From positions 3,300-67,299 of the forward strand of contig JAILIS010000039.1 of the NCBI GenBank assembly GCA_024695145.1: DNA of 64,000 nt, read 5' to 3'. The translations under genes and the position numbers were made by a program. Every line of letters starts with the position of its first letter. Position 1 is the first letter of the stretch. The notes beneath the pieces were generated by a model. It saw only the letters and a program-made list of their open reading frames with translations. It was not told the DNA's origin and did no database searches. This document shows positions 847 through 36,420 of the stretch, piece after piece. This stretch comes from Lachnospiraceae bacterium (GTDB taxonomy: Bacteria; Bacillota; Clostridia; Lachnospirales; Lachnospiraceae).

Positions 847-1737
847 TCATGTTTTTGCTTTTTTCTTTTTAAGTGCCCGGGTTCCGGCAGATATCTCCGT
901 AATCTCCTGCGTGATCCTGCTCTGGCGGGCGTGATTGTATTCAAGCCTCAGCTCTCCCATCAGCTTGGTTGCGTTCTTATCGGCTTCGTCCATGGCGTTC
1001 ATCCTGGCACTCTGTTCACAGCAGTAACTGTCCACCAGTGCACTGTAGAGATATTCCGCAATATAGCTTCTGACTATGTTCTCAAGCACGCTCTCGGCGG
1101 AAGGATAAAAATCAAAATGCAGGTTCTCATCGATCTGGTCGGGAGTATAGAAATCCTTACGGTGAAAAGGCAGAAGCCTGACTGTGATCGCCTTCTGCTG
1201 TATGCCGTTCTCGAGATCCGTATAGATCAGGAAGATCTTTGATATCTTTCCGGCATCATACTCGGAAAGGATATACTCAGCCATACGCCTTGTCCTGTTC
1301 ATGGTCGGATTGTCGGCAGAAAACCTGAACTGGTCATCATACGGTATCCCTCTGACCTCGCAGTACTTACAGCCGTAGTCACCAACCATGTAATATACGC
1401 TCTCATGTTCCATGTCGCGGCTTTCGAATTCCTTGATGACCGCATGATTATAAAACCCCGCAAGTCCTTTGTCAGATGTCACGACGATATAAGCATACGC
1501 ACCGGAAAGATCGTGCGATCCGTCTGCCGGATACATATACGGACTGTCTATCGTTCGCTTGGAACGGAATATCCTCTTGATCTCATTGTTCAGCGCGTCA
1601 AAGTGCGGTCTGGTGCGCTCAAGCTCTGCACGGGCCCTGCGCATCTTGCTCGAGGAGATCATGTACATGGCTTTGGTGATCTTCTCGGTGTCGGCAACCG
1701 ACTTCATGCGTGATCGTATCTCTCTTATGTCAGACAT
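847..1737 (-). CDS. atpG: F1 ATP synthase gamma subunit
   Basis: 296 aa. MSDIREIRSRMKSVADTEKITKAMYMISSSKMRRA is a typical gamma N-terminus, and the C-terminal ITQEITEI motif is present. It sits between alpha and beta. Confidence 0.9.
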   Translation of the reverse strand: MSDIREIRSRMKSVADTEKITKAMYMISSSKMRRARAELERTRPHFDALNNEIKRIFRSKRTIDSPYMYPADGSHDLSGAYAYIVVTSDKGLAGFYNHAVIKEFESRDMEHESVYYMVGDYGCKYCEVRGIPYDDQFRFSADNPTMNRTRRMAEYILSEYDAGKISKIFLIYTDLENGIQQKAITVRLLPFHRKDFYTPDQIDENLHFDFYPSAESVLENIVRSYIAEYLYSALVDSYCCEQSARMNAMDEADKNATKLMGELRLEYNHARQSRITQEITEISAGTRALKKKKAKT

Positions 1738-3451
1738 TTTGCCTCTTTACCGCATCCAATATCCTGAGCCTGTCATCATCGGACAGCACGCCCTGATCGT
1801 TTATCCTGCTGACTATGTCGCGGCACTGCGCCATGACGGCTTTGATGATCTTACGGATCGCCTCTCCTGACTCATCCGGCTCGATCGTCTCAAACTTGTC
1901 CGTGGTCGCTATGACAAGAGCAAATACCTGCTCCGCCGCGCTCATCGGATGATTGGGTTTCTGTTTCAAAAGGCCCATCAGACCTTCGCCGTACCTGATC
2001 TGTTTCTTCGTGACCTCATCCATATCTCCGGAAAACTGCGAAAAGCTCTCCATCTCCCTGTACTGCGCGAGATCAAGCTTAAGCGATCCGGTGGCTTTTT
2101 TCACTGCCTTTGTCTGTGCATCTCCACCGACACGCGATACGGACAGACCCACATTGATCGCGGGACGCTGTCCTAACCGGAACAGTCCTCCGGAGAGGAA
2201 TATCTGACCGTCGGTGATGGATATGACATTTGTCGGGATATATGCCGATACATCTTCTTCCTGAGTCTCGATGACAGGCAGTGCGGTAAGGCTTCCGCCT
2301 CCCCTCTCGTCGCTAAGATGTGCCGCCCTCTCAAGAAGCCTTGAATGCAGATAGAAAACATCCCCGGGATAAGCCTCACGTCCGGGAGCCCGCTCAAGCA
2401 GCAGACTTATGGAACGGTAGGCGATCGCATGCTTCGTAAGATCATCGTAAACGATCAGAACATCACGGCCCTTTTCCATAAAGTATTCGGCCATGGCACA
2501 TCCGGCATACGGTGCTATGTACAGCAGCGGTGACGGATCGGCTGCGGATGCGTTAACTACTATTGTATAATCAAGGGCACCGTTCTTTTTGAGCGAATCA
2601 ACGATCCTCGCCACGGAGCTCGATTTCTGGCCAATGGAAACATATACGCATATAACGTCCTTGCCCTTCTGGTTGAGTATCGTATCCGTGACTATCGTGC
2701 TCTTTCCGGTCTGGCGGTCGCCTATGATCAGCTCACGCTGTCCGCGGCCTATCGGAAACATCGAATCGATGGCAAGTATCCCCGTTTCAAGCGGAACGTT
2801 TACCGGCTGTCTATCTATGACCGCAGGCGCCTCGCTGTCAACTTCGCGATAGTCATCGGCAATGATATCACCGAGGCCGTCTATCGGTACCCCGAGCGGA
2901 TCCACCACGCGTCCGAGAAATCCTTCGCCCACGGGTACGCCGGCAACTCTTCCGGTGCGCTTTACAAGACTGCCCTCACATACTTCCTCTTCTGCATCAA
3001 AAAGGATACAGGCGACCTCATCACGCCGAAGATCGAGTGCCATTCCGCGCACTCCGCCGGAGAACAGGAGGATCTCCCCGTATGATGTGTCGGCCAGTCC
3101 GCTGACTGTAGCAATACCGTCACCGACCGTGGTCACGGTACCAATCTCGTCAACCATCACGGTCGGAGTCCAGTCTTTCAGTGTATCCTTGATAAGCGGG
3201 ATTATATCGGTGCGTTCATTTCGGAGAGCATACAGCGCATCCTGAAGCTGTCTGAGCCTTCCCTTTGTATTCCAGTCGTACACATCGGTTCCGACTACGA
3301 GCCTGAAACCTCCGGTGATGCCGCCGGACTGCTTCCATCCTATAGGTATGGATCTTCCGTATTTATCTTTGAGAAAATCAGCCAGTCTGCCGAGATCATC
3401 GTCAGACGGCTTTTCACTGCTGTACAGCAGTGCGGTTGTGATCTCATCCAT
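1730..3451 (-). CDS. atpA: F1 ATP synthase alpha subunit with an N-terminal delta(OSCP) C-terminal-domain-like extension
   Basis: The alpha core is present: VGDGIATVSGL, Walker A GDRQTGKS, and the C-terminal helical domain. I chose the start at ATG 3451 (MDEITT), which overlaps the atpF stop as ATGGATGA. The upstream part of the track ORF overlaps atpF and was rejected. The first ~76 aa resemble the delta C-terminal half (ITGGFRLVVGTDVYDWNTKGRLRQL). Confidence 0.85.
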   Translation of the reverse strand: MDEITTALLYSSEKPSDDDLGRLADFLKDKYGRSIPIGWKQSGGITGGFRLVVGTDVYDWNTKGRLRQLQDALYALRNERTDIIPLIKDTLKDWTPTVMVDEIGTVTTVGDGIATVSGLADTSYGEILLFSGGVRGMALDLRRDEVACILFDAEEEVCEGSLVKRTGRVAGVPVGEGFLGRVVDPLGVPIDGLGDIIADDYREVDSEAPAVIDRQPVNVPLETGILAIDSMFPIGRGQRELIIGDRQTGKSTIVTDTILNQKGKDVICVYVSIGQKSSSVARIVDSLKKNGALDYTIVVNASAADPSPLLYIAPYAGCAMAEYFMEKGRDVLIVYDDLTKHAIAYRSISLLLERAPGREAYPGDVFYLHSRLLERAAHLSDERGGGSLTALPVIETQEEDVSAYIPTNVISITDGQIFLSGGLFRLGQRPAINVGLSVSRVGGDAQTKAVKKATGSLKLDLAQYREMESFSQFSGDMDEVTKKQIRYGEGLMGLLKQKPNHPMSAAEQVFALVIATTDKFETIEPDESGEAIRKIIKAVMAQCRDIVSRINDQGVLSDDDRLRILDAVKRQNV

Positions 3452-3944
3452 TGTCACTGTTCCTGTCTGTATCCTGCACTTTTTCAAAGAAAGAGTCAAA
3501 ATCATCATGCAGGCCTTCATCCTTCATGACGATCTTCTCGGCTGCCATTGCGACATAGTCGGCGATCTCCGTCTGTGCTCTTGCTATCAGGCGGTCATGT
3601 TCCTTCTGTGCCTTGTCTCTGGCATCCTCCACGATGGATGATGCCCTGTTGTGTGCATCACTGATGATCTTTTCTCTTTCGGCTTCCGCGGCGGCACTTG
3701 TTCGTGCGCGTTCAAGCGCAGTCTCTTTTTCAGCCTCCGCAAGCTTTGACTCATACTCTCCCTTCAGCTTTTCGGCGTCCGAGAGTGCATCTTTTGTATC
3801 CCTGTCTCTCTTTCGGTACTCTTCCTCGCGCTTATCCATGAAGTCATGAACCGGCTTGTACAGAAGAATATAGAGTATGCCGAACAGAAGGACCAGATTG
3901 AACAGATGCAGCAGTATCTGCTGCACATCAATGTTTAGTGGCAT
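3444..3944 (-). CDS. atpF: Fo ATP synthase subunit b
   Basis: 166 aa. It has one N-terminal TM (LLHLFNLVLLFGILYILLYKPV) followed by a long charged A/E/K/R-rich helix. It sits between c and alpha. Confidence 0.85.
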   Translation of the reverse strand: MPLNIDVQQILLHLFNLVLLFGILYILLYKPVHDFMDKREEEYRKRDRDTKDALSDAEKLKGEYESKLAEAEKETALERARTSAAAEAEREKIISDAHNRASSIVEDARDKAQKEHDRLIARAQTEIADYVAMAAEKIVMKDEGLHDDFDSFFEKVQDTDRNSDNG

Positions 3945-3962: not shown

Positions 3963-4322
3963 TTATAATACGAATATGATAAGGATCGCCACGATCAGCG
4001 CATAGATTATGGCCGTCTCGACGAACACGAGGCCCAGCATCATGGCTGTCCTAATCTTGCCTTCGGCTTCCGGCTGTCTTGCGATACCCTCAACCGTCTT
4101 CCAGATGACAAGGCCCATTGAGATGGCGCCCGCTGCCGCAACGACCGCAATGGCTATGCCTGCTGCCCATGCCTTGGAATGAACGTTTGCCGCTTCATCT
4201 GACATTGCCGCAACAGCAACTTCACTGCTGTCAGCTGCATAGGCATTCTTTGGTGCAAACAGTCCTCCGAGCACCAGTGCGATCATCAGCACTGCGGCGA
4301 TTTTTACGATTACCTTGTTCAT
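3963..4322 (-). CDS. atpE: Fo ATP synthase subunit c with a ~39-aa signal-peptide-like N-terminal extension
   Basis: The C-terminal 80 aa form a canonical c hairpin: the GIARQPEA loop and carboxylate E in [15 protein letters not shown] strong AGGAGGAAGG SD lies just upstream of ATG 4322. The internal Met (MSDEAAN) has no SD. Confidence 0.85.
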
Positions 4323-12614: not shown

Positions 12615-13826
12615 CTACATCTTACGTATCCGGTCAACTGCCTCGCGTGTATTTTCATGGCTTCCGAACGATGTAAGCCGGAAGTACCCCTCTCCGCACG
12701 ATCCGAAGCCCGACCCCGGGGTACCGACTACATTTGCGTTCTCGAGCAGCCGGTCGAAGAATTCCCAACTTGACAAACCGTCGGGTGTCGCCATCCAAAC
12801 ATATGGGGAATTGACCCCGCCGTAAACGGTGTATCCCGCCTCCTTAAGGCCTGACAGGATGTACTTTGCATTCTCCATATAGTAATCTATTAGGCCTCTT
12901 ATCTCCTTCTTTCCCTCATCCGAATATACCGCCTCTCCGGCACGCTGTACTATATAAGGTGCTCCGTTGTATTTTGTGGCGTGTCTCCTTGCCCAGAGCG
13001 AATGAAGTGATACGCCGCGTTTTAAGGCCTTTGGAACGACCGCATATCCGAGGCGCAGTCCCGTAAATCCCGCGTTCTTCGAAAACGAACGAAGCTCTAT
13101 CGCACACTCTTTTGCCCCGCTGCATTCATATATGGAATGGGGGATGTTCTCTTCACTGATATATGCTTCATATGCCGCATCAAATATTATGACCGAGCCG
13201 TTCTTATTGGCATAGTCGACCCAGTTCTGAAGTGCATCCTTTGTGATCGCTTCTCCCGTGGGATTGTTCGGAAAACACAGATAGATTATGTCCGCACCCG
13301 TTTTGGGAAGTTCCGGAACAAAACCGTTTTCGGCAGTGCACGGAAGGTAGATTATGTCAGAGTATCTGCCGGCATCTGCGACAAAATCACCCGCACGCCC
13401 TGCCATTACGTTTGAGTCAACATACACCGGATATACCGGGTCGCATACGGCCACTTTATTGTCACCTGCGAAAATCTCCTGGATATTACCGGAATCGGGC
13501 TTGGCTCCGTCGGATATGAATATCTCGTCTTCCTCGATCTCACACCCCCTTGCCTTGAAATCATTATCGCATATCGCTTTGCGCAGAAAATCATATCCGA
13601 GATCCGGTGCATATCCCCTGAACGTCTTCTCGTCGGCCATCTCATCTACGGCATTATGAAGCGCGCCGATCACCGACGGTGTGAGCGGCCTCGTGACATC
13701 TCCTATCCCGAGTCTTATTATCTTCCTGTCGGGATTACCCGCCGCGTACTCGCCTACTTTCTTCGCTATGGTAGAAAAAAGATAGCTTCCCTGCAGTTTC
13801 TGATAGTTGTCGTTGATCTTAACCAT
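12615..13826 (-). CDS. dapL: LL-diaminopimelate aminotransferase
   Basis: [24 protein letters not shown] is the characteristic DapL N-terminus, and the PLP-Lys motif [14 protein letters not shown] is present. I set the start at ATG 13826, which has a GGAGGAAGC SD. The track start further upstream has none. Confidence 0.85.
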
Positions 13827-16149
13827 GATGCTTCCTCCATTTTTCAAGTTTCTCCTCGTCTTCATATGAAAAGCTGTACCCTTCGGCCTCTTCAAGGATA
13901 TCCCTTATCGTCTCATCATCATTATCCTTTTCGGCTTCAAGGAGTGCTTCAAAAATACTCTCGACAATGAATCTGTCGGGAACGACTCCTCTTTTTCCCT
14001 CATGTCCCGTATCCATTGTCTCATACTGCATCAGATGCTTCATGACGGCACTATGGTTGTTTCTGATATATTCGATATCATTGTCTTTTGCTGCCGTCTC
14101 AAGTGCAAACGCTTCACCGGCAAGTTTTCCCGCACCGATGATCTGGGCGGAACTTTTCAGTGCATGGACCTTTGCCGCGTAGGCATTCCAGTTGCCTTCC
14201 TTATAATAGCTGTCTATCTCATCGCACGACTCTTTTGCAAGATCCGCAAACATTCCGAGCATCGTTTCAAAAGCCTCTGCAGAACCGCAGTTCTTTATGC
14301 CTTCGCTGCGATCGATCCCCGGTATGATTTTTTCCGGTATGTTCTTTTCCGTTTTCGTTTTAACAGCGGTCGTCTGTTTGACAGTGATCTTTGATGCAGG
14401 CAGATGAGTACGCATGACTTCTTCGAGCTGGCTTCCCGAAACGGGCTTTACAAGATATCCGTCAAATCCGCACTTTGCATAAAGTTCCCGGTCTTTGCTG
14501 CCGGCATTTGCCGTCAGCACGATCACAGGCGTTTTGAGGTTACGTCCGTTATCCTGCTGTCTTATGCGTTTCATGCATTCTATACCGTCCATCCCCGGCA
14601 TCATATGGTCCATGAGTATGACATCATATGCCTTTTCCATGGTGAGCTTTAATGCCTCTTCGCCGCTCAGTACCGTGTCCGTTGAGATCTCGGTGTCTTT
14701 AAGCAGTTTCTTTTCAACCTCAAGGTTCATCCTGTTATCATCTACGATCAGGACCGCGGCCGATGCCGCACTGAAACCGACAAAATGACCGTCGGCATAT
14801 GCCTCGCCGGCATCGCCGGAAATATCAAATTCCCCGGTCGGATCCGGATCGATAACCTTCTGAAGAAGAGTGACCGTGAACGTGGTACCTTTTGAATATT
14901 CACTGTCAACACCGACGTCACCTTTCATAAGATCCGTCAGCTGTTTTACTATTGACAGGCCGAGTCCGGTTCCCTCAATACCAGCATTCTTTTCTTCGTC
15001 CGCTCTTGTGAACGCATCGAACAGATAAGGGATGACCTCCTGTCTGATGCCCATTCCGGTATCCGTGACGCGGAATATCAGTCTGATGTTTTCATCATCC
15101 GTCTTCTCATATCCCACGCGTAAAGTAACAGATCCTTCTTCCGTATATTTGACGGCATTGTTTAACAGATTGACAAGTATCTGTTTGATACGGACTTCGT
15201 CGCCGTGAAGGATACGCGGAACACTGTGATCGACCGTGACATTGAGATCAAGCCCCTTTTCTGCCGCAGGCGCCCACATCATGTTGGCGATCTCGGACAT
15301 GAGTTTTGCAACGTTATAATCAACCGGCACTATTTCCATCCTTCCGGCTTCTATCCTTGAAAAATCAAGCAGATCGTTGATAAGTGCCAGCAGCATACGG
15401 CCCGCCGTCTGAATGTTTCGTGAATCCTTTCTGATCTCATCGGTTGCATCGGGATTGCGAAGGATGATCTCGTTCAGTCCCATGATGGAGTTGATCGGTG
15501 TACGTATCTCATGGCTCATGTTCGAGAAGAACCGGTTTTGTGACTGTGACAGCTCCTCAACCTTCTTTGTCTCCTCTTTAACGCGCGCATTTTCCTGCTT
15601 AAACACACGGTTCTGAAACCATGTCATTACAAAGCATATATAACCGACCTCTACTACGGCAAGAGCGACATCGATGCTCTTTACCCGTCTCGTATGAACA
15701 TCGTTGAGTTCCGGGTAATAATACCCTATGGTAAACATTGCCGCGACTATGATCGTATGGATGATAAGTGCCGTAATGCGCCATCTGCCCGGCAGCATAA
15801 GTCCTATGTACAGATACGCAAATATGAGCCAGGGGACAACGGCGCCTTCAGAACCGCCTCCGAATAAGAAAACTATCGGAAGTATCACGACGATCAGTCC
15901 GAAAGACAGGATCTTGGCCGCAACATCCGTCTTTTTTGTCCGCACCCCGATGATCGTGATCACGTGAACAACAAAAAAGGCGATGACAAGTGTTAAGATC
16001 TCGACCCTGTTGTCGACATACAGCAAGTCACCGATGATCGCCAGCCCCATGACTGCGGTTGCCGCCAGCGTCAGGACCACAAACACACGCTCCCGAAGGC
16101 TTCTGGATCGATCGGTTATAAGCTTTCTGACGCTGTTATCAAGCCTCAT
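13819..16149 (-). CDS. hybrid sensor histidine kinase (multi-TM N-terminus, HisKA/HATPase, receiver, C-terminal Hpt)
   Basis: It has ~5 predicted TM helices. The H-box is [11 protein letters not shown] and the G2 box is GTGLGLSIV. The receiver is [13 protein letters not shown]...[13 protein letters not shown]. The Hpt-like motif is [16 protein letters not shown]. Confidence 0.8.
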
Positions 16150-19048
16150 GTTCCGCCTCCCGACCGTTCATCCCGCTGATCATCCTCTCAAGCATCTCCA
16201 TATTGACGGGCTGATTTACCCACGGAAAATCTGCCGCCTCGGGTACTTTACTGATAACGGCAAAACGGTCATATCCGATCATCAGCATCTTCCGTCTTTT
16301 AACCGACATATCGATACAAAACCTTGAAAGGGATGAGAGCCCGTCCGCATCATCAGCAATACCCTTCGGCAGACAGATAACAGCCAGAGCCAAAGAGCTG
16401 CCCTGATCGTTATTATCGGGCTTTCCTATAAAGGATGCGACACTGTAGCCGAGGGCCGAAAGTTTTTTGATGACCCCGGTCATGACCGCACTCTTCTTAT
16501 ATAAAAATACTTCTATAACATCATCCGAACGTCTCTTAACCTTTTCATCGGGAAGATACTGCGCGAGCATACTCTCGAGCCTGGCCGATTCTATCGGTTT
16601 GGTAAGATAATTGTCAAATCCCGCCTCTATATACTGCTGTCTCGCTCCGGCGACGGCATTTGCGGTAAGGCATATTGCCGGGGTGGTAAGGTTCGGATTG
16701 TCAGACTGAGCGCGCATTTCATGAAGTGTTTCTATCCCGTCCTTCTGCGGCATCATATGGTCAAAAAGTATGACGTCATATTTTGTCTTCGCGGAAAGCT
16801 TCAGTCCTTCATCCCCGTCCTTTGCCGTATCTATCACGATCTGAGTCTTTTTGAGAAGACTCTTTACAACTCTTAAGTTCATCGGACTGTCGTCAATGAC
16901 AAGGATCCTCGCTTCGGGCGCGGTAAATTTCTCACGGTATGATTTTCTTATGTTAAGACGGTTCCTGTATGCCGATCTGTAATCTCCGAGTTCTTCATTT
17001 TTTACGACTTTCTGTTTCAGGGTGAAATAAAACCGTGACCCTTTCCCGTACGTACTTTCAACATTGAGAGTCGAACCCATAAGTTCAAGAAGGCGCTGGG
17101 TTATGTTCATTCCGAGTCCCGTGCCCTCAATGTTACGGTTGCGCTTTTCCTCTATCCTGTCAAACTGTGAAAAAAGCCTGGAGATATCCTCTTTTTTTAT
17201 ACCGATACCGGTATCTTCCACGGATACGTACAGGTTTACATAATTCTGGTCGGATCCCTCTTCATCCAGCCTGACAGTGAAGGATATCTTCCCCTTCTGC
17301 GTGAACTTTACGGCATTTGACAGCATGTTTGTCACCAGCTGTCTGATGCGGTTCTCATCACCGTACAGATATCTCGGGATCTTAGGATCAAAATCAAGGA
17401 CCAGATCAAGGCCTCTCTCCTCTGTCAGCTTGATCATCATATTCGACAGATCATTGAGTGACTCCGAAAGATCATACTCTCTCGGTTCGATCCCCATATC
17501 ACCGGACTCTATCCTTGAAAAATCAAGTATATTGTTGACGATACCGAGCAGCGCGCCTCCTGCGCTTCTGATGCCTTCGGAATACCCGATTATGTTGGCA
17601 TCTCCGCTCTCCCTCAGTATCATCTCGTTCATACCGAGAACAGTATTGATGGGAGTCCTGATCTCATGAGACATATTGGCAAGAAACGAACTCTTAGCCT
17701 CATTGGCGGCCTCTGCGATCATCTTTTCCGCTTCGAGTTCATGAACCATGGTCTTTTCATAGTATATACAGTTTTCCCTGTGGTTGAACCCGTTATGGAT
17801 GGCCGTTGCCATCTGCATACAGCTTTCGTAGCCGCAGCACGTACAGTCTATGTGCCGCGAATCATCGGTCAGCTTGTTCATGCTGGCAAATATCTCCTCA
17901 AGCTGTGCCTCCGACGGAACCTCATAACGACAGTCACCGGATCTGTCAGTATATCCTCTCAGATAATCTTCAAGATTCAGGCCGGAAAACTGGGCGTTGT
18001 AGTTTTTAAGCCGTTCTTCGGGACTGTCCGGCCTTGACCACGCGTCGCCGCTCTGTGTTTTCTTGGAAGACTCGCGTATATCAAGAAGTGTATAGAGTGC
18101 ATCTTCGGTGGCTGACTTTTCGGGATCGACAGCCGTTCCGCATATACATCCCTGTTTGCAGTTAAGAGCGTCAATGAACAGAAACGGTGTTCTGCCTTCC
18201 CTTATCCTGTCTTTGTTGTCATGCATCCATTCATACAGATGCCGCTCTCCTTCCACCTGCCGGATATATACCTGATCACCGAGGAACCACCTTACGTTTT
18301 CCGCAAGACCTCCGGGAGTGGGATAAAATGATCCGAGTCCGTATTCTATCTCGCTGTGGACCGGTGATCCTGTTATGTTATGTTCATGAACATACTTCAT
18401 CAGATGATCAAAGGTGACGTTGTACTGAACCAGCCCGCTGTTGTGAGGATCTTCTATCTCCATCTTCTTGGCAATGCACGGACTGATGAACGCCAGATCA
18501 TCGGTGATTCCCATCTCTTTTCTGGCATATATGGCCGCGCACATGAGAGGGCTCTGAACCGGAAATACCTTCGGCAGCAGTTCCGGAAGATAGCGTTCTA
18601 TATAAGATACGACCGCCGGGCACGGCTGGGATATTCCTCCCGTAAAATCATATTTCTCAATGTAGTTAAGGTATCCCCAGGTTGTTATGTCGGCTCCGAA
18701 AGCAACACTTATGATGCGGTTTACACCCGCCTCCTTAAGACCTCCGAGAACACTTTCGTATTCATCCGGATAGTTGGCCCGAAACGCCGGTGCCAGAAGC
18801 AGTGATATCTTCTTCCCGCTTTTAAGGTCGGCAAAAAAACGTTCCGTGTCATCGTTGAATTCCCTTGCGCCGTGCACGCACACATCAATACAGCTTCCGC
18901 AGGCAACACATTTGCTGCCGTTGACATCGATCCTGGCCTTTCCGTTTTCCTCTTTGGAAATACATGCACCTATGGCACTGCAAACCTTTATACATTTATT
19001 GCATCCTATACAGTTGTCATTTGTGTAAACTATGCTTTTTTCGATCAT
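16139..19048 (-). CDS. hybrid histidine kinase with an N-terminal 2x[4Fe-4S] ferredoxin and [FeFe]-hydrogenase-like H-domain (putative sensory hydrogenase kinase)
   Basis: Two ferredoxin motifs are present: CIGCNKCIKVC and CVACGSCIDVC. H-cluster-like motifs are SQPCPAV (P1-like), SPCIAKKME (P2, PCxxKxxE) and NCKQGCICG (P3, CxxGCxxG). An extra CTCCGYESC-x16-C motif follows. Downstream are the H-box [16 protein letters not shown], and the receiver ILVIDDSPMNL...VILFDHMMPQKDG. Confidence 0.75.
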   Translation of the reverse strand: MIEKSIVYTNDNCIGCNKCIKVCSAIGACISKEENGKARIDVNGSKCVACGSCIDVCVHGAREFNDDTERFFADLKSGKKISLLLAPAFRANYPDEYESVLGGLKEAGVNRIISVAFGADITTWGYLNYIEKYDFTGGISQPCPAVVSYIERYLPELLPKVFPVQSPLMCAAIYARKEMGITDDLAFISPCIAKKMEIEDPHNSGLVQYNVTFDHLMKYVHEHNITGSPVHSEIEYGLGSFYPTPGGLAENVRWFLGDQVYIRQVEGERHLYEWMHDNKDRIREGRTPFLFIDALNCKQGCICGTAVDPEKSATEDALYTLLDIRESSKKTQSGDAWSRPDSPEERLKNYNAQFSGLNLEDYLRGYTDRSGDCRYEVPSEAQLEEIFASMNKLTDDSRHIDCTCCGYESCMQMATAIHNGFNHRENCIYYEKTMVHELEAEKMIAEAANEAKSSFLANMSHEIRTPINTVLGMNEMILRESGDANIIGYSEGIRSAGGALLGIVNNILDFSRIESGDMGIEPREYDLSESLNDLSNMMIKLTEERGLDLVLDFDPKIPRYLYGDENRIRQLVTNMLSNAVKFTQKGKISFTVRLDEEGSDQNYVNLYVSVEDTGIGIKKEDISRLFSQFDRIEEKRNRNIEGTGLGMNITQRLLELMGSTLNVESTYGKGSRFYFTLKQKVVKNEELGDYRSAYRNRLNIRKSYREKFTAPEARILVIDDSPMNLRVVKSLLKKTQIVIDTAKDGDEGLKLSAKTKYDVILFDHMMPQKDGIETLHEMRAQSDNPNLTTPAICLTANAVAGARQQYIEAGFDNYLTKPIESARLESMLAQYLPDEKVKRRSDDVIEVFLYKKSAVMTGVIKKLSALGYSVASFIGKPDNNDQGSSLALAVICLPKGIADDADGLSSLSRFCIDMSVKRRKMLMIGYDRFAVISKVPEAADFPWVNQPVNMEMLERMISGMNGREAEHEA

Positions 19049-19114
19049 CTGCTCCGGTAAAAACCGTTTCCTCTCGTGATGTGCTTAAGATTATACCACA
19101 TAATCTGTCCCTAC

Positions 19115-19143
19115 TTGACTTTTTATGATGTCAAGCGTATATT
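19115..19143 (+). promoter_or_regulatory. candidate sigma-A promoter for purA
   Basis: TTGACT (19115-19120), a 17-nt spacer and TATATT (19138-19143). The predicted start falls in GGGC at ~19150. Confidence 0.5.
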
Positions 19144-19153
19144 TCTTTTGGGC

Positions 19154-19190
19154 AAAGGTGCCATAGCTGTGGTTATGGCACCTTTTTTTA
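19154..19190 (+). terminator. intrinsic-terminator-like hairpin in the purA 5' leader (candidate attenuator)
   Basis: A 12-bp stem AAAGGTGCCATA / TATGGCACCTTT with an 8-nt loop, where GGCACC is followed by seven Ts. It lies between the candidate promoter and the purA ATG (19227). There is no plus-strand gene upstream for it to terminate. Confidence 0.6.
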
Positions 19191-28004: not shown

Positions 28005-28019
28005 GCTGTCTCACCTCTT
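27996..28019. terminator. bidirectional terminator hairpin spanning two convergent stop codons
   Basis: A 10-bp stem AAGAGGTGAG / CTCACCTCTT with a 4-nt loop. A T-rich tract follows on the plus strand (ATGTTTTTCTC) and a TTTCTTATC tract on the minus strand. The hairpin contains the DUF1836 stop (28002-28004) and the GGDEF gene stop (28011-28013). Confidence 0.6.
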
Positions 28020-29849
28020 ATGTTTTTCTCTCTTTTCTTTGTACATTTCCTGATCCGCAAGTTCTATAAGAGAACTGAGCGGCTTGTCATTATCATAGCT
28101 GACCATATGATATCCGATACTCGCATCGACCATATAGGGTCTTTCGCCTCCGTCATTGAGCTGTTTCATGGAGCGTCTTATCCTTGCAATGTTATCCTCA
28201 ACCTCTTCTTCCGACAGTCCTCTTCCGAACACAACAAATTCATCGCCGCCGTATCTCATCAGAAGATCTTCCCTGCTCCGGCTCTTGCGAAGTACATCCG
28301 CCATATCACAGATCATACGGTCTCCCATCTCATGACCGAGTGCATCATTTACTTTTTTGAGGCCGTCAAGATCAAGGAAGATAAAGTACATTTCCTCTTT
28401 GTTCCTTCTCGCATCTCTTACGACTTCTTCGGAAAACTTGAAAAATCCGGCCCTGTTATATACGTGGGTCATAGGATCGAACACCCACATCTCATCCAGG
28501 GTCTTGATCATATGCTGCATTTTCCTAAGGTTTTTGACCTGTTCGAGAGCATTTGAGAGCGTCATCATCAGAACCCTGTAGAATTCCGAGAACAGCGGCA
28601 TCTGCGAATTCCGTATTATTGATATCCCGTAAAACCGCTCCCTGTAATGCAGCGAATCGATTATATACAGATTGCCTCCGACATTCGGATCGAACCTCGG
28701 ATGTCTTTCCCTGACATACTCTTTGCTGATCGTGCTGAACTTTCCGTCATAATAATTGATCCCGCTCATGATATCCGTATCGGGAGTATCATCATCGTCG
28801 CTGTCCCCGATGAGCAGGCAGAAAGCATCACCGCCCAGATCCTGTATGCACGGTTTCAGGATATCACACACGTCCCGGGGTGATTTTGCATTGGTAAGCT
28901 CAACCGTCAGTTCGCTTATCATCTCGGCATATCTTGCCTCGCGAAGCTTGTTGCGCGCGTACTGATTGACGACTATACGATGGTTGACGGGACGCACCGC
29001 ACCGCAGCCGCAGCTTTCGGCATACACGGGCTTGGAAAGAATGACGGGACTCTTATCATAATCCTTCTGGTCGATGGCCCGTATAACGTTTTTATATGCA
29101 GTTTCACCGACCTTTATCTCAAAACGGTTGATGGATGTGATCCTCGGGTAATGGTTGGCCGCCTCAAATATATTGTCGTAACCCGAAAGTATCGTATCTT
29201 CCGGAACCCTTATCCCTCTGTCGGAAAGAGCATAGAAAGCACCCAGAGCCATCTGATCGTTGGCACATACATAAGCGTCCGCAGTAAGTAAACCGTTTTC
29301 TTCAAAATAGTGAACGGCCGCCCTTCCGCTCCGTGCATAATAATCTCCAGTATAGCATCTTTTAGGATCCAGTTTCATACCGCATCTGATCATTTCCATC
29401 TCAAATACACGCTTACGTGTCACGGAATCGATGGAATCATCCGGTCCGCTTATGAAATTAACGGTCTTCACATTATGCTCATTTATCAGATGCCTTGACA
29501 GCGTCTGCATGGCAGACTCATTGTCGGAACTGACATTTATCATTCCGGGTATCGGACAGTCTATCGATGCCGCGGGCTTGTTCTGTGTAAGTATCTTGGC
29601 GATGAGCTTTGACCTGATCTTTGCCGAATAGATACTCTCCGCATAGATGATGAATCCGTCATAAACGGAAAAATCATCATACAGCATCGCAGCCGCCTCA
29701 CCGTTGTTGAACTCATCATCGGTGGAAAGTGTCAGGCAGTACACGATGACATTATTTCCGTCCTTTTCAGCGGCATCGGAAATACCTTCAAGAACCTTAC
29801 GCTGCGAATCCAGTTGCAACTCACCAAGAAAGACTGCGATATTATACAT
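28011..29849 (-). CDS. diguanylate cyclase with an N-terminal LacI/periplasmic-binding-protein-type sugar-binding domain (no HTH, no signal peptide)
   Basis: The N-terminal ~270 aa resemble a LacI-family effector domain (VNFISGPDDS, AYVCANDQMALGA, SGYDNI). The C-terminal domain is GGDEF (RYGGDEFVVF). Confidence 0.75.
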   Translation of the reverse strand: MYNIAVFLGELQLDSQRKVLEGISDAAEKDGNNVIVYCLTLSTDDEFNNGEAAAMLYDDFSVYDGFIIYAESIYSAKIRSKLIAKILTQNKPAASIDCPIPGMINVSSDNESAMQTLSRHLINEHNVKTVNFISGPDDSIDSVTRKRVFEMEMIRCGMKLDPKRCYTGDYYARSGRAAVHYFEENGLLTADAYVCANDQMALGAFYALSDRGIRVPEDTILSGYDNIFEAANHYPRITSINRFEIKVGETAYKNVIRAIDQKDYDKSPVILSKPVYAESCGCGAVRPVNHRIVVNQYARNKLREARYAEMISELTVELTNAKSPRDVCDILKPCIQDLGGDAFCLLIGDSDDDDTPDTDIMSGINYYDGKFSTISKEYVRERHPRFDPNVGGNLYIIDSLHYRERFYGISIIRNSQMPLFSEFYRVLMMTLSNALEQVKNLRKMQHMIKTLDEMWVFDPMTHVYNRAGFFKFSEEVVRDARRNKEEMYFIFLDLDGLKKVNDALGHEMGDRMICDMADVLRKSRSREDLLMRYGGDEFVVFGRGLSEEEVEDNIARIRRSMKQLNDGGERPYMVDASIGYHMVSYDNDKPLSSLIELADQEMYKEKREKHKR

Positions 29850-34050: not shown

Positions 34051-36420
34051 TTACTGCTCCCTCAGTATAAAATCCTTATCCTCGTCAATGATATCGACCA
34101 TGATCTTCGCAAACCTGGGATCGAACTGTGTTCCGCTGCATCTTATGATCTCCGCCCTTGCCTCTGCCTGTGTGAGCGGTTCCCTGTAACTGCGGTTGCT
34201 TGTCATCGCATCATATGAGTCTGCTACGGCAATGATCCTCGCAACCTCCGGAATATCCTCCCCGGCAAGGCCGTCGGGATATCCTTTTCCGTCATATCTC
34301 TCATGATGCCATCTTGCGCCTCGTGTGATATTGGGCATTTCCTTTATCGTTTCGAGTATCTGATTGCCGATGACGGGATGTTCTTTGATGATGTCATATT
34401 CTTCATCCGTCAGCTTATCCTTCTTGTTTATTATGGCATCGGGTATACCGATCTTTCCGACATCATGAAGAAGACCGATTATATATATCTCATCCTGTTC
34501 CTTATCGTCATAGCCGTAGTGCATGGCAATAAGCTTTGAATACTCCGCCACGCGGTTCGAATGGCCGTTCGTGTATTTATCCTTGGCATCGATCGCATGC
34601 GCAAGAGCCTTTATGATATGTATACCGAGCTGTTCGACCTCTTCGGCCTTTTTCTCGATCTCCCTGTTCATGTGCATGCGCAGGTGAGCCAGGTTCATCA
34701 GATTGGAGATACGCAGATTAAACACTTCATCCGAGATCGGCATACTGATAAAATCAACCGCTCCGAGTTCCAGGCAGCGCCTCTCCGTATCCGGATCCTC
34801 TACGCCGGTAAATATGATCGGAACATGCCTGAAAGTTCCTCCGAGATCGCGGATCGCAACTGCCGTATCAGCACCGCTCATATTTTCCATGGCCGCATTT
34901 ATTATGACAATATCCGGAATGTTATCATGAAGATGATTAATAAGCTCCTCTTTGCTTTTTGCCGGTGTGACATCATATCCGTGCAGGCAAAGTGAATGCA
35001 TCATCATGTCAAGAGAGGCTTCATCATCATCGGCTATAGCTATGCGGTTATCTTCTTCCCCTCTTTCGGGAACGTTGGCGGTTATCTCCGGATCCGTGCT
35101 CTGCGTTTCAACGGCAAGTTCAACCAGTCCGCTGTATTCATTACTCTTCCACGCTCTCATGACACGATCGGTCACGCGGCTGACGTTGTAATCACTTATT
35201 TCGGGAAGCATCAGGAAGAAATGATTGCCTCCGATCTGCATCATGATATCACTGTTTCGAAGAGATTCCTGAAGCAGCTCCCGAAGGCTCAGCATTATCT
35301 TTTCCCTCTCCGACTGTGACAGATCACTGTGTAAAAATCTTGCGGTAAAGAGCATCTTATATGCCGTTCCGCGGTATCTGTCCATGTATCTGATCATGTA
35401 CCTGTATACATTACCGAAAGCTTCCCTTCCCATCCACATGGCATTCTGGGGGATGCTTCTCTCCTCCAGTATCGTGGTGAGCATATCAAGATTGATATCG
35501 GGCGGGATCTCCTCGGCGGACTGCTCATCTTTAAAAAGCGCATATCCGTGCTTGCCGTTATTCTTTATCATGTAGAGTGCCCTGTCGCTCAAACGGAACA
35601 GAGTGTTAAAATCAGTCCCCTGTTCCGGGACATAAACAGCCCCTACAGATGTTCCGAGAGGGATACTCATACCATCCCTCATGATATCGTGACTCTGTTT
35701 TGCAAGATCACGGTTAACTCCTTCCGTAAACCTGCTGATCTCCTTCTCACTCTTCATGTTCTCGGCAAACAGGAGGAACTCGTCTCCTCCTACTCTTCCG
35801 AATGTGCATGGGAATATCATGTTCCGTCTTATTATCTCGGAAAACATGGCAAGAATACGGTCGCCCATTTCATGACCGTATATATCATTGACAAGTTTAA
35901 ACGAATCAAGATCGAGGATCATCAGAACACCGGATCTTGTCCGGCAAAGTGCTGATATATGCTCCTCGGCGTTATATTTGTTGAGAAAGCCCGTGAGCTT
36001 GTCGATCGTCGCTTCCTCTTCATACTTCAGCAGTTGTCCTCTGGTGCTTATGATCTTCTCAACACGGCGGGTCAGAACATCCGGATCAAAGGGTTTTCTT
36101 ATATAGTCCGATACCCCCATCTCAAATCCTTTGCTCTCGTGTGACCTGTCCTCATCGGCAGTCAGAAATACGATGGGAACAGCCGGTATGCCAAGCTCAC
36201 TCTCAAGTTCCCTGAAGCGCTCATATGTTGTAAAGCCGTTCATTTCCGGCATGTTGATGTCAAGAAGGATCAGATCGGGAGCACCGTTCATGCGGACATA
36301 TTCAAGAAGACTGCTTCCTGATTTTAACGCAGTGACTCTCATACTGTTCTTGGACAGGATCTCTCCGGCCACCTTGAGGTTCGTGACATCATCATCTACG
36401 ACCATTATCCATGCTGCCAT
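34051..36420 (-). CDS. dual-receiver c-di-GMP protein: REC-GGDEF-linker-REC-HD-GYP
   Basis: REC1 is IMVVDDDVTNL...LILLDINMPEMNG. The GGDEF motif is RVGGDEFLLF. REC2 is IAIADDDEASL...IVIINAAMENMSG. The HD-GYP motifs are HDVGKIG and HHERYDGKGYP. Confidence 0.8.
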   Translation of the reverse strand: MAAWIMVVDDDVTNLKVAGEILSKNSMRVTALKSGSSLLEYVRMNGAPDLILLDINMPEMNGFTTYERFRELESELGIPAVPIVFLTADEDRSHESKGFEMGVSDYIRKPFDPDVLTRRVEKIISTRGQLLKYEEEATIDKLTGFLNKYNAEEHISALCRTRSGVLMILDLDSFKLVNDIYGHEMGDRILAMFSEIIRRNMIFPCTFGRVGGDEFLLFAENMKSEKEISRFTEGVNRDLAKQSHDIMRDGMSIPLGTSVGAVYVPEQGTDFNTLFRLSDRALYMIKNNGKHGYALFKDEQSAEEIPPDINLDMLTTILEERSIPQNAMWMGREAFGNVYRYMIRYMDRYRGTAYKMLFTARFLHSDLSQSEREKIMLSLRELLQESLRNSDIMMQIGGNHFFLMLPEISDYNVSRVTDRVMRAWKSNEYSGLVELAVETQSTDPEITANVPERGEEDNRIAIADDDEASLDMMMHSLCLHGYDVTPAKSKEELINHLHDNIPDIVIINAAMENMSGADTAVAIRDLGGTFRHVPIIFTGVEDPDTERRCLELGAVDFISMPISDEVFNLRISNLMNLAHLRMHMNREIEKKAEEVEQLGIHIIKALAHAIDAKDKYTNGHSNRVAEYSKLIAMHYGYDDKEQDEIYIIGLLHDVGKIGIPDAIINKKDKLTDEEYDIIKEHPVIGNQILETIKEMPNITRGARWHHERYDGKGYPDGLAGEDIPEVARIIAVADSYDAMTSNRSYREPLTQAEARAEIIRCSGTQFDPRFAKIMVDIIDEDKDFILREQ

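What the first reader, a model, noticed from the sequence alone, without database searches (positions are those of the whole stretch)
16139..19048. [FeFe]-hydrogenase-like domain fused to a hybrid histidine kinase (putative H2/redox sensor kinase)
The 969-aa protein opens with two ferredoxin CxxCxxCxxxC motifs. It then carries recognisable versions of all three H-cluster motifs: SQPCPAV (P1), SPCIAKKME (P2) and NCKQGCICG (P3). The first Cys of the catalytic TSCCP doublet is missing, as expected for a non-catalytic or sensory enzyme.

A further C-x2-C-x4-C-x16-C motif (CTCCGYESC...C) follows. From memory, this spacing matches the accessory cluster of HydS-type sensory hydrogenases.

The protein continues directly into HisKA-HATPase-REC without a PAS domain. 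Histidine-kinase-linked group C [FeFe] hydrogenases have been predicted bioinformatically. To my knowledge they have not been characterised.
Basis: partly seen in the sequence, partly recalled or inferred. Interest (0 to 1): 0.75.

Follow-up and report, generated by a model that had tools for sequence, protein, structure and literature searches.

The report
Hydrogenase-like sensor fused to histidine kinase
This gene encodes a soluble signalling kinase whose input module looks like a non-catalytic iron-iron hydrogenase, so it probably reports hydrogen or redox state; it belongs to a large class that has been predicted from sequence but never tested at the bench.

Summary

- **Domains:** two ferredoxin 4-Cys motifs, an [FeFe]-hydrogenase H-domain (Pfam Fe_hyd_lg_C, 92.5 bits), a Cx2Cx4Cx16C cluster motif, then HisKA, HATPase_c and REC. 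No PAS domain.
- **H-cluster site:** all four Cys ligands, Lys358 and Glu361 (CpI numbering) are kept. Cys299 is Pro, Met353 is Ser and Met497 is Asn, the pattern of putative sensory hydrogenases.
- **Fold:** the AlphaFold model (pLDDT 89) matches solved [FeFe] hydrogenases.
a C-terminal pseudo-receiver domain, and an overlapping downstream hybrid kinase that supplies the Hpt domain this protein lacks.

The architecture is not rare. At least 55 of the top 150 representatives at 50% identity carry the same sensor-kinase fusion. The same cassette, at 65-76% identity, is also fused to chemoreceptor, GGDEF, GGDEF-EAL and HD-GYP outputs. The target's sensor sits closer to those than to other kinase-fused lineages.

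No hydrogenase or maturase gene lies nearby, so H2 sensing versus Fe-S-only redox sensing stays open. I found no biochemical study of such a fusion.

Verdict: a new member of a known, predicted kind (HydDB group C). Interest is moderate.

The parts
16139..19048 (-). Whole gene: 969-aa soluble hybrid sensor kinase with a hydrogenase-like input cassette
   Evidence: ORF list and translation. Pfam domains. No TM-like segment.
18866..19033 (-). aa 6-61: 2x[4Fe-4S] ferredoxin-like domain (C13/16/19/23 and C47/50/53/57)
   Evidence: Fer4_6, Fer4_7 and Fer4 hits. Motifs located. The Cys are invariant in 65 homologues.
18137..18811 (-). aa 80-304: [FeFe]-hydrogenase H-domain (Fe_hyd_lg_C). The predicted fold continues to about aa 395.
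   Evidence: Pfam 92.5 bits, E 4e-26. PDB sequence hits 8a6t_A at 9e-19 for the single sequence and 6e-23 for the profile. AF2 pLDDT 89.4 and Foldseek matches to HydA, CbA5H, DdH and CpI.
18611..18631 (-). P1 motif SQPCPAV (aa 140-146): Cys143 is the cluster ligand (CpI C300); Pro142 replaces the proton-relay Cys299
   Evidence: Alignments to solved hydrogenases. GGISQP(C)P: G137-P142 and P144 invariant, Cys143 and Ala145 at 90% or more, in 65 homologues; the motif is fully invariant in the 28-sequence alignment. QPCP is predominant in 57 kinase-fused clusters.
18458..18484 (-). P2 motif SPCIAKKME (aa 189-197): Ser189 at the Met353 position, Cys191 = C355, Lys194 = K358, Glu197 = E361
18137..18163 (-). 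P3 motif NCKQGCICG (aa 296-304): Asn296 at the Met497 position, Cys297 = C499, Cys301 = C503
17762..17851 (-). aa 400-429: accessory cluster motif C402-x2-C405-x4-C410-x16-C427 (Pfam FeS, PF04060). It lies directly before the helix that runs into the kinase.
   Evidence: Pfam 26.2 bits. All four Cys are invariant in every alignment. AF2 predicts helix 428-445. The same spacing is reported for HydS-type enzymes (PMC8163306).
17501..17698 (-). aa 451-516: HisKA/DHp domain with H-box SHEIRTP (His461)
   Evidence: Pfam. Motif. H461, E462, R464, T465 and P466 are invariant in 42 fused homologues.
17012..17362 (-). aa 563-679: HATPase_c catalytic domain (N box NAVKFT, G1 DTGIG, G2 GTGLG)
   Evidence: Pfam 96.3 bits. 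Motifs.
16565..16906 (-). aa 715-828: receiver domain (DD 719-720, phospho-acceptor Asp763 in FDHMMP, Lys817 in TKP)
   Evidence: Pfam 85.8 bits. Motifs. Foldseek matches to REC structures.
16166..16519 (-). aa ~844-961: receiver-like (beta-alpha)5 domain with no recognisable acceptor Asp or conserved Lys (pseudo-receiver)
   Evidence: No Pfam hit at E<=10. No word-index homologues. Found locally in P0121, P0124, P0161 and two small X-REC proteins of L004. AF2 topology, and a Foldseek top hit to the PleD REC-REC' tandem, 1w25_A at E 9e-13.
13819..16149 (-). Downstream gene overlapping by 11 nt: 776-aa membrane hybrid kinase MASE11-HisKA-HATPase_c-REC-Hpt. It is the presumed relay partner that supplies the Hpt.
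   Evidence: ORF list. Pfam. Hpt motif HALKSSA in the translation and 6-7 TM-like segments. Partnership is inferred from the overlap and from the conserved clustering with Hpt-bearing kinases in relatives.
19049..19140 (-). Upstream region with a GGAG ribosome-binding site and a TGgTATAAT extended -10-like element (inferred promoter)
   Evidence: Read directly from the sequence. The consensus scan did not list it, so this is only an inference.

Best explanation
The gene encodes a cytoplasmic hybrid sensor histidine kinase. Its input module is a complete cassette of the putative sensory [FeFe]-hydrogenase type (HydDB group C).

Cassette layout: a 2x[4Fe-4S] ferredoxin domain, then an H-domain with all four H-cluster Cys ligands but without the catalytic proton-relay Cys, then a helical linker, then a fourth cluster site (Cx2Cx4Cx16C).

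Proposed mechanism:
1. H2 binds and is slowly oxidised at the H-cluster.
2. This sets the redox state of the cluster chain.
3. The last cluster's fourth ligand, Cys427, sits at the start of the helix that continues into the DHp helix carrying His461. Its redox or ligation state could therefore bias kinase against phosphatase activity.
4. Phosphate passes from His461 to Asp763 in the protein's own receiver.
5. The protein has no Hpt, so phosphate would pass on to the Hpt of the translationally coupled membrane kinase downstream (MASE11-HK-REC-Hpt), and from there to an unidentified response regulator.
6. The C-terminal pseudo-receiver probably serves docking or dimerisation, like the second receiver-like domain of PleD.

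Shown here: the domain architecture, conservation of cofactor ligands and kinase residues, the fold, the family distribution, and operon overlap.

Inferred only: [2Fe] subcluster loading, H2 as the signal, the direction of regulation, the phosphotransfer route, and the output.
For: **Architecture and motifs:**

**Homology of P1, P2 and P3 to solved hydrogenases:**

**Fold:** AF2 pLDDT 89.4, pTM 0.88. Foldseek top 50 are all [FeFe] hydrogenases.

**Purifying selection on cofactor residues:**
- 65 close homologues keep P1 GGISQP(C)P, with G137-P142 and P144 invariant and Cys143 at 90% or more. They also keep P2 (Ser189, Pro190, Cys191, Lys194, Lys195 and Glu197 invariant), P3 (Leu295, Asn296, Cys297, Gly300 and Cys301 invariant) and all four Cys of the accessory motif.
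- The H-cluster and accessory-motif Cys are also kept in all but a few of 57 diverse kinase-fused clusters at 29-81% identity, and are invariant in a 42-sequence alignment of them.

**The substitution pattern matches enzymes shown to bind a [2Fe] subcluster.** TmHydS has C299A, M353G and M497S. TamHydS has M353S. In sensory enzymes the Met353 position is Gly, Ser or Thr (PMC8163306; PMC10055695).

**The cassette behaves like a generic input domain.** The same module is fused to six outputs:
- HisKA-HATPase-REC, with or without Hpt and PAS
- MCPsignal
- GGDEF
- GGDEF-EAL
- HD-GYP
- REC alone

**The fusion point** is the same in all, a few residues after Cys427.

**Kinase and receiver residues** are intact.

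**Relay partner:** the downstream kinase overlaps by 11 nt and carries the Hpt. Relatives either carry their own Hpt (L004, 1049 aa) or sit in islands of Hpt-bearing hybrid kinases.
Against: - No hydE, hydF, hydG or catalytic hydrogenase gene lies anywhere in the 64-kb window.
- None lies within 10 kb of the relatives inspected either. This contrasts with HydS-type sensors, which sit next to the hydrogenases they are thought to control (PMC8163306).
- Motif conservation alone cannot prove [2Fe] loading. From general knowledge, eukaryotic Nar1/NARF proteins keep similar Cys motifs without it.
- Pro at the Cys299 position has no characterised precedent that I found. TmHydS has Ala there.
- Some authors discard group C2 sequences as unvalidated hydrogenases (PMC9431212) or could not find canonical P1-P3 motifs in C1 sequences (PMC11406978).
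- The phosphorelay partner and the output are inferred from gene order only.
Confidence: 0.55

Rival explanations
1. It is an Fe-S-only redox sensor kinase. The H-domain would hold just its [4Fe-4S] cubane with no [2Fe] subcluster. Together with the three other clusters it would report the reduction state of the ferredoxin or NAD(P)H pool, or damage by O2 or NO, to the kinase. H2 would not be the ligand.
For: - No maturase or hydrogenase genes in the window or beside relatives.
- Three second-sphere residues important in catalytic enzymes are replaced: Cys299 to Pro, Met353 to Ser, Met497 to Asn.
- The N-terminal 2x[4Fe-4S] domain is the usual ferredoxin-facing entry point in hydrogenases (PMC8163306).
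- Published doubts exist about C1/C2 sequences being true hydrogenases.
Against: - Residues whose known role is to hold the [2Fe] subcluster and its CN ligands are invariant across the 65-sequence alignment. These are the Lys358 and Glu361 equivalents, the APA motif and the PGG motif.
- The Lys358 and Glu361 equivalents and the PGG glycines are also at 90% or more in a 42-sequence alignment that reaches down to about 30% identity. That is hard to explain if the pocket were empty.
- TmHydS and TamHydS carry comparable substitutions and do bind the subcluster.
- From general knowledge, Lachnospiraceae are typically H2 producers with HydEFG encoded elsewhere in the genome.
Confidence: 0.3
2. It senses another small ligand of the H-cluster, such as CO or O2, rather than H2. 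The remodelled pocket (Pro142, Ser189, Asn296, invariant Cys170) would act as a gas-binding site whose occupancy switches the kinase.
For: - Sensory-type enzymes show altered CO and O2 reactivity, attributed to exactly these three positions (PMC8163306).
- There is an extra invariant Cys170 in the loop aligned with the CpI 'SPQQIF' segment near the subcluster.
Against: - There is no direct evidence.
- TamHydS and TmHydS become less, not more, CO-sensitive.
- H2 is the abundant relevant gas in the gut and rumen habitats suggested by the relatives' MAG names.
Confidence: 0.1
3. It is a catalytic hydrogenase with a kinase tail, or a decaying fusion without function.
For: The complete H-cluster ligand set is present. 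Some relatives (P0124, L005) have lost HATPase_c, which shows that the module can decay.
Against: - The proton-relay Cys is absent, and related sensory enzymes have very low turnover.
- The target ORF is intact, with every kinase and receiver catalytic residue present.
- The sensor cassette is strongly conserved, with 65-81% identity to many relatives.
Confidence: 0.05

Closest known systems
HydDB [FeFe] group C1, 'histidine kinase-linked (putative)' sensory hydrogenases (Sondergaard et al. 2016, PMC5037454)
   Same: A hydrogenase-like H-domain coupled to histidine-kinase signalling, with a predicted H2-sensing role and no biochemical characterisation.
   Different: - In published C1 examples the kinase is a neighbouring gene (Vallitalea), or only a HATPase_c domain is attached (Hydrogenedentota). 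Here the full HisKA-HATPase_c-REC is fused in one chain.
- By identity and NJ tree, the target's sensor is nearest to MCP- and GGDEF-fused cassettes, not to most other kinase-fused lineages.
HydDB [FeFe] group C2, 'chemotactic (putative)': hydrogenase-like domain fused to an MCP signalling domain, common in Lachnospiraceae
   Same: The sensor cassette (Fer4x2, H-domain, Cx2Cx4Cx16C) is 65-71% identical over its full length. It has the same GGISQPCP, FISPCIxKK and LNCxxGC motifs and the same fusion point after Cys427.
   Different: The output is a hybrid histidine kinase plus receiver plus pseudo-receiver, not an MCP signalling domain.
HydS of Thermotoga maritima (TmHydS, group C3 / M2f) and TamHydS of Thermoanaerobacter mathranii (group D / M2e), the only characterised putative sensory [FeFe] hydrogenases
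   Same: - An N-terminal 2x[4Fe-4S] domain.
- An H-domain lacking Cys299.
- A small or hydroxyl residue at the Met353 position (Ser here, as in TamHydS).
- A variable Met497 position.
[quoted passage not shown]
   Different: - No PAS domain (TmHydS has one).
- Direct fusion to a kinase (TamHydS has only a neighbouring HATPase-like gene).
- Pro rather than Ala at the Cys299 position.
- Not encoded next to a catalytic hydrogenase.
[NiFe] regulatory hydrogenase HoxBC with the kinase HoxJ (HydDB [NiFe] group 2b)
   Same: Works like it in concept: a low-turnover hydrogenase reports H2 to a histidine kinase of a two-component system.
   Different: The metal centre and fold are unrelated. The sensor and kinase are separate proteins that form a complex, and HoxJ contacts the hydrogenase through a PAS-like domain.
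PleD-type REC plus adaptor REC' tandem
   Same: The C-terminal 270 aa are predicted to fold as a receiver followed by a receiver-like domain with no recognisable phospho-acceptor. The Foldseek top hit is PleD, 1w25_A at E 9e-13.
   Different: Here the tandem ends a hybrid kinase rather than preceding a GGDEF domain. Sequence similarity of the second domain to any Pfam family is nil.

Membership tests
[FeFe]-hydrogenase H-domain (Pfam Fe_hyd_lg_C) | Scores above the curated Pfam threshold | tested here: met
   92.5 bits against a cut-off of 22.1, E 4.2e-26, aa 80-304.
[FeFe]-hydrogenase H-domain (Pfam Fe_hyd_lg_C) | Four Cys ligands of the H-cluster cubane and bridge (CpI C300, C355, C499, C503) | tested here: met
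   Cys143, Cys191, Cys297 and Cys301 align to them. In 65 close homologues Cys191, Cys297 and Cys301 are invariant and Cys143 is at 90% or more. All four are invariant in the 42 kinase-fused sequences.
[FeFe]-hydrogenase H-domain (Pfam Fe_hyd_lg_C) | Hydrogenase fold | tested here: met
   AF2 pLDDT 89.4. Foldseek matches 8a6t_A at E 3.6e-16 and TMq 0.64, and CpI 4xdc at E ~3.5e-14.
[FeFe]-hydrogenase H-domain (Pfam Fe_hyd_lg_C) | Binds the [2Fe] subcluster and activates H2 | not testable with these tools
   Needs maturation followed by FTIR, EPR and activity assays.
[FeFe]-hydrogenase H-domain (Pfam Fe_hyd_lg_C) | HydE, HydF and HydG maturases encoded in the same genome | tested here: inconclusive
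   None among the Pfam-scanned ORFs of the 64-kb window. The rest of the genome is not available.
Catalytic (group A) [FeFe] hydrogenase | Proton-relay Cys299 in TSCCP, plus Met353 and Met497 | tested here: not met
   The three positions are Pro142, Ser189 and Asn296. NCBIfam FeFe_hydrog_B1 scores 135.7 bits against a cut-off of 450.
Putative sensory [FeFe] hydrogenase (HydS-like, groups C and D) | N-terminal 2x[4Fe-4S] domain, loss of Cys299, and a small residue at the Met353 position | tested here: met
   The criteria come from PMC8163306 and PMC10055695.
Putative sensory [FeFe] hydrogenase (HydS-like, groups C and D) | C-terminal Cx2Cx4Cx16C cluster motif | tested here: met
   C402, C405, C410 and C427. 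Pfam FeS hit.
Putative sensory [FeFe] hydrogenase (HydS-like, groups C and D) | PAS domain after the cluster motif (M2f / C3 type) | tested here: not met
   No PAS hit in Pfam. The AF2 model shows only helices between aa 305 and 445.
Putative sensory [FeFe] hydrogenase (HydS-like, groups C and D) | Encoded next to the catalytic hydrogenase it regulates | tested here: not met
   The neighbours are purA, a second kinase, an aminotransferase and a phosphoglucomutase. Relatives likewise have no hydrogenase neighbours.
HydDB group C1 (histidine kinase-linked) | Association with a histidine kinase | tested here: met
   Fused in cis to HisKA-HATPase_c-REC.
HydDB group C1 (histidine kinase-linked) | Nearest neighbours among HydDB reference sequences are C1 (k-NN classifier) | not testable with these tools
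   HydDB references are not available here. An indirect test points the other way: the nearest non-kinase relatives are GGDEF- and MCP-fused at 65-76% identity, while other kinase-fused lineages are at most 52%.
Hybrid histidine kinase (HisKA family) | H-box His, N, G1 and G2 boxes, receiver Asp and Lys | tested here: met
   SHEIRTP (H461), NAVKFT, DTGIG, GTGLG, D763 and K817. All are conserved in 42 homologues.
Hybrid histidine kinase (HisKA family) | Hpt domain completing a His-Asp-His relay in cis | tested here: not met
   No Hpt hit. The C-terminus is a pseudo-receiver. Hpt is present in the overlapping downstream kinase and in cis in relative L004.
Nar1/NARF-like non-hydrogenase homologues | Clusters with NARF references and lacks [2Fe]-pocket residues | tested here: inconclusive
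   No NARF references were available. All structural and sequence top hits are true hydrogenases, and the Lys358 and Glu361 equivalents are conserved.

The most novel reading that the evidence does not exclude
The Fer4 / H-domain / Cx2Cx4Cx16C cassette may be a freely shuffled, general-purpose cytoplasmic H2 input module of gut and rumen Clostridia. It would wire H2 partial pressure directly to chemotaxis, c-di-GMP turnover and phosphorelays.

The protein in this window arose by grafting a chemoreceptor/GGDEF-type cassette onto a paralogous hybrid-kinase module. If so, it would be a PAS-less, single-chain [FeFe]-based H2-responsive two-component sensor.

The invariant Pro at the proton-relay position and the extra Cys170 would define a new way of tuning an H-cluster for sensing rather than catalysis.
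Probability: 0.35. Interest if true: 0.7.

Novelty: new member of a known kind. Interest (0 to 1): 0.45.

Why it matters
How putative sensory [FeFe] hydrogenases pass their signal on is an open question. The only characterised examples, TmHydS and TamHydS, have no measurable output attached, so their sensory role is still called putative (PMC8924675).

A single soluble chain in which the last Fe-S cluster abuts the kinase helix gives a direct biochemical read-out, namely autophosphorylation. H2 versus redox sensing could be tested with it.

The same cassette drives chemoreceptor, c-di-GMP and kinase outputs in Lachnospiraceae-type genomes. This suggests that fermenters in gut and rumen communities may adjust motility and lifestyle to H2, which bears on interspecies H2 transfer and methane output. 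That ecological link is inference, not shown here.

The value lies in the family rather than in this particular gene.

Tried and rejected
1. **+ strand reading of the given coordinates.** It is full of stop codons. The gene is on the minus strand.
2. **hydEFG or catalytic hydrogenase genes.** I looked across the window and beside relatives and found none. Genomic context therefore neither supports nor excludes H2 sensing.
3. **Naming the C-terminal 140 aa.** Pfam at E<=10 gave nothing, and a word-index homologue search gave nothing. Only local jackhmmer and structure prediction gave an answer.
4. **Formal HydDB A-D placement.** Reference sequences could not be fetched and the Greening 2016 paper is not held. 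I substituted identity comparisons and a midpoint-rooted NJ tree without bootstraps. That tree supports only the coarse statement about nearest neighbours.
5. **NCBIfam.** It gave no specific family for the sensor. FeFe_hydrog_B1 scored far below its cut-off.
6. **Experimental work on kinase- or MCP-fused [FeFe] sensors.** Literature searches found none in the held library.
7. **Cys-Cys geometry in the model.** Coordinates are not exposed to the scripting tool, so this could not be measured.
8. **The idea that the fusion is rare.** I rejected it after the representative search.
Full report
**Observation**

The coordinates 16139-19048 hold a 969-codon ORF with an ATG start, but on the minus strand. 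The plus-strand translation is broken by many stops.
- two CxxCxxCxxxC ferredoxin motifs (aa 13-23 and 47-57)
- SQPCPAV (aa 140-146)
- SPCIAKKME (aa 189-197)
- NCKQGCICG (aa 296-304)
- C402-x2-C405-x4-C410-x16-C427

Pfam gives the following hits and no PAS domain:

| Domain | Residues | Score |
|---|---|---|
| Fer4 models | 6-61 | several, some below cut-off |
| Fe_hyd_lg_C | 80-304 | 92.5 bits (cut-off 22.1), E 4e-26 |
| FeS (PF04060) | 400-429 | 26.2 bits (cut-off 23) |
| HisKA | 451-516 | 54.3 bits |
| HATPase_c | 563-679 | 96.3 bits |
| Response_reg | 715-828 | 85.8 bits |

The protein has no hydrophobic segment, so it is cytoplasmic. 21 of its 24 Cys lie in the first 427 residues. A GGAG ribosome-binding site and a TGgTATAAT element precede the start.

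**Is the N-terminal half really hydrogenase-like?**

Sequence searches against solved structures hit only [FeFe] hydrogenases in this region. HydA of bifurcating HydABC scores E 9e-19 with the single sequence and 6e-23 with a family profile. CbA5H, DdH and CpI follow.

The printed alignments give these residue equivalences to CpI:

| CpI residue | Role | Target residue |
|---|---|---|
| C300 | cluster ligand | Cys143 |
| C355 | cluster ligand | Cys191 |
| C499 | cluster ligand | Cys297 |
| C503 | cluster ligand | Cys301 |
| K358 | holds the [2Fe] site | Lys194 |
| E361 | holds the [2Fe] site | Glu197 |
| APA motif | holds the [2Fe] site | A86-P87-A88 |
| C299 | proton relay | Pro142 |
| M353 | second sphere | Ser189 |
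| M497 | second sphere | Asn296 |

An AlphaFold2 model of aa 1-446, built on 65 homologues, has pLDDT 89.4 and pTM 0.88. Its 50 best Foldseek matches in the PDB are all [FeFe] hydrogenases, led by 8a6t_A at E 3.6e-16 and TMq 0.64.

The substitution pattern is the one described for putative sensory enzymes. Cys299 is not conserved in M2e/M2f. The Met353 position is Gly, Ser or Thr. The Met497 position is variable. A Cx2Cx4Cx16C motif follows the H-domain (PMC8163306; PMC10055695). TmHydS and TamHydS carry such changes and still bind the [2Fe] subcluster, according to those papers.

All catalytic signatures of a HisKA-type kinase and a receiver are present:
- H-box SHEIRTP (His461)
- N box NAVKFT
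- G1 DTGIG and G2 GTGLG
- DD at 719-720, Asp763 and Lys817

There is no Hpt domain. Residues ~844-961 have no Pfam match even at E<=10 and no word-index homologues. A model predicts a (beta-alpha)5 receiver-like fold. The REC plus C-terminal tandem best matches the REC-REC' pair of PleD, 1w25_A at E 9e-13. I could not find the acceptor Asp or the conserved Lys in the alignment, so I call it a pseudo-receiver. The same domain occurs in P0121, P0124, P0161 and, in the order X-REC, in two small proteins of locus L004.

The next gene (13819-16149, minus strand) overlaps the target's end by 11 nt. It encodes a membrane hybrid kinase, MASE11-HisKA-HATPase_c-REC-Hpt, with an HALKSSA phosphotransfer motif. 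I infer that it supplies the missing Hpt.

**Relatives**

The sensor part alone finds 5703 proteins at E<=1e-10 among 8000 scored candidates. The best 120 are 65-76% identical over the whole cassette. None of those has a kinase. The top twelve end in GGDEF and the rest in an MCP signalling domain. They are annotated as Oscillospiraceae, Lachnospiraceae, Roseburia or Eubacterium. No hit exceeds 76%, so this exact protein is not in that collection.

A full-length search of 1.84 billion representatives at 50% identity shows that the kinase fusion is common. At least 55 of the top 150 representatives carry sensor plus HisKA/HATPase plus REC, with sensor identity 29-81%. In a set of 42:

| Pfam family | Sequences with a hit |
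|---|---|
| Fe_hyd_lg_C | 42 |
| HisKA | 42 |
| REC | 41 |
| FeS (PF04060) | 34 |
| Hpt | 18 |
| PAS | about 13 |

Across 57 such clusters the four H-cluster Cys and the four accessory-motif Cys are kept in all but a few sequences. The Cys299 position is mostly Pro ('QPCP'), and the Met353 position is Ser, Gly or Thr. Further outputs fused to the same cassette are GGDEF-EAL, HD-GYP and REC alone.

Sequence conservation runs up to about five residues past Cys427 and then switches to output-specific sequence. This is the behaviour of a portable input domain.

**Where the target sits**

Sensor identity of the target to its relatives:

| Relative | Sensor identity |
|---|---|
| Kinase-fused P0121-P0125 | 76-81% |
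| GGDEF-fused proteins | up to 76% |
| MCP-fused proteins | up to 71% |
| Any other kinase-fused lineage | at most 52% |

A midpoint-rooted NJ tree, without bootstraps, nests the target clade inside the MCP/GGDEF clade. Most kinase fusions form separate deep clades.

The target's kinase-receiver module is about 60% identical to many hybrid kinases that lack the sensor. One of these is the dCache kinase next to its homologue in L004.

The simplest reading is output swapping: a C2-like cassette joined to a paralogous hybrid-kinase module. On H-domain sequence, HydDB might therefore call it C2 rather than C1. I could not run that classifier.

**Genomic context**

The window is chromosomal. It holds ATP synthase, purine, cysteine/methionine and amino-sugar genes, and no hydrogenase or maturase among the ORFs scanned.

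The P0124 locus (L006) occupies the same slot: MatE, NUDIX, Cys_Met_Meta_PP, PALP and purA on one side, aminotransferase and phosphoglucomutase on the other. Its kinase island is larger, with dCache-HK, SBP_bac_3, Hyd-HK, HK-REC, HK-REC-DegV-Hpt, GlnA and ANTAR. L004 is similar and also has an HD-GYP protein.

MCP- and GGDEF-fused relatives sit among other chemoreceptors or next to a hybrid kinase. Context links the sensor to signalling networks, not to hydrogen metabolism. This differs from HydS.

**Mechanism**

The model I favour at 0.55 confidence has these steps:
1. H2 is slowly turned over at a sensory-type H-cluster.
2. Electrons equilibrate over the cluster chain.
3. The Cx2Cx4Cx16C cluster has its last ligand at the N-terminus of helix 428-445, which leads into the DHp. 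It sets kinase output.
4. Phosphate flows from His461 to Asp763, then to the Hpt of the neighbouring kinase, then to an unknown regulator.

The architecture, ligand conservation and fold are shown. The remaining steps are inferred.

The main rival (0.3) is an Fe-S-only redox or oxidant sensor with no [2Fe] subcluster. The lack of maturase or hydrogenase neighbours and the three second-sphere replacements favour it. Strict conservation of Lys194, Glu197 and the APA and PGG motifs across the family counts against it. Sensing of another gas (0.1) and a catalytic or decaying protein (0.05) are minor alternatives.

**Comparison with what is known**

HydDB lists [FeFe] groups C1 (histidine kinase-linked), C2 (chemotactic) and C3 (phosphatase-linked), all marked 'putative'.
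- Published C1 cases have a neighbouring kinase or only a HATPase_c domain.
- Some authors doubt or discard C1 and C2 sequences.
- Only PAS-type TmHydS and group D TamHydS have been characterised, and reviews still call the sensory role putative.
- I found no study of a kinase-, MCP- or GGDEF-fused member.

**Verdict**

The protein is a new member of a known, predicted class and belongs to a very large family, so it is not a surprise to a specialist. Its interest lies in three things: it is a tractable PAS-less single-chain test case for [FeFe]-based H2 signalling, it shows clear output swapping within the cassette family, and it raises the unexplained Pro142 and Cys170 features. Interest is 0.45.

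Noticed in passing
window 13819-16149 (-): A membrane hybrid kinase, MASE11-HisKA-HATPase_c-REC-Hpt, whose start overlaps the target's stop by 11 nt. It is the likely phosphorelay partner. The MASE11 hit is below the Pfam cut-off (20.4 against 27.3 bits).
   Followed up: partly
Proteins P0001-P0012, P0073, P0131, P0158, P0217, P0222: The same hydrogenase-like cassette is fused to GGDEF, GGDEF-EAL and HD-GYP domains. HydDB names a diguanylate-cyclase-linked class only for [NiFe] (2c), not for [FeFe], so c-di-GMP-coupled [FeFe] sensors appear to have no class name of their own.
   Followed up: partly
L005:9941-12472; L006:10001-12715 (P0124): Close relatives (77-80% identity in the sensor) have lost the HATPase_c domain but keep HisKA, REC and the pseudo-receiver. 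They sit directly upstream of a complete HK-REC gene, which suggests phosphorylation in trans or a phosphatase-only role.
   Followed up: no
L004:1-22643 and L006:6803-18136: The hydrogenase-like kinase lies in islands of three to four consecutive hybrid kinases. These include a dCache kinase and an HK-REC-DegV-Hpt fusion. L004 additionally has an HD-GYP protein and two small pseudo-receiver-REC proteins.
   Followed up: partly
window 57928-59697 (-): A 589-aa ORF combines a MatE efflux domain with a C-terminal HATPase_c_2 domain (anti-sigma-factor kinase type). This is an unusual pairing.
   Followed up: no
window 46403-54257 (-): Five consecutive large ORFs (418, 545, 582, 494 and 559 aa) have no Pfam hit at E<=1e-5. 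They lie just upstream of a NarL-type response regulator (45784-46449).
   Followed up: no
window 19154-19185 (+): A strong 14-bp hairpin followed by a T-run lies about 40 nt upstream of the purA start, in the divergent intergenic region shared with the target gene. It could be an attenuator or a bidirectional element.
   Followed up: no
window 28011-29849 (-) and 34051-36420 (-): Two more c-di-GMP signalling genes lie in the window: a Peripla_BP-GGDEF protein and a REC-GGDEF-HD-GYP protein with two receiver stretches. The latter is a candidate end point for the relay, but no evidence links them.
   Followed up: no
window 1730-3520 (-): The ATP synthase alpha-subunit ORF is 596 aa. It has about 120 extra N-terminal residues that overlap the b-subunit ORF (3444-3944). 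No separate delta subunit was seen between them, but the 119-aa ORF at 3963-4322 and other short ORFs in the operon were not scanned. This could be a fused or mis-started delta subunit.
   Followed up: no
target aa 170 and 373 (window ~18537-18539 and ~17928-17930): There are two extra Cys outside any recognised cluster motif. Cys170 is invariant and Cys373 nearly invariant in 65 close homologues. Cys170 lies in the loop aligned with the CpI 'SPQQIF' segment near the [2Fe] site.
   Followed up: partly
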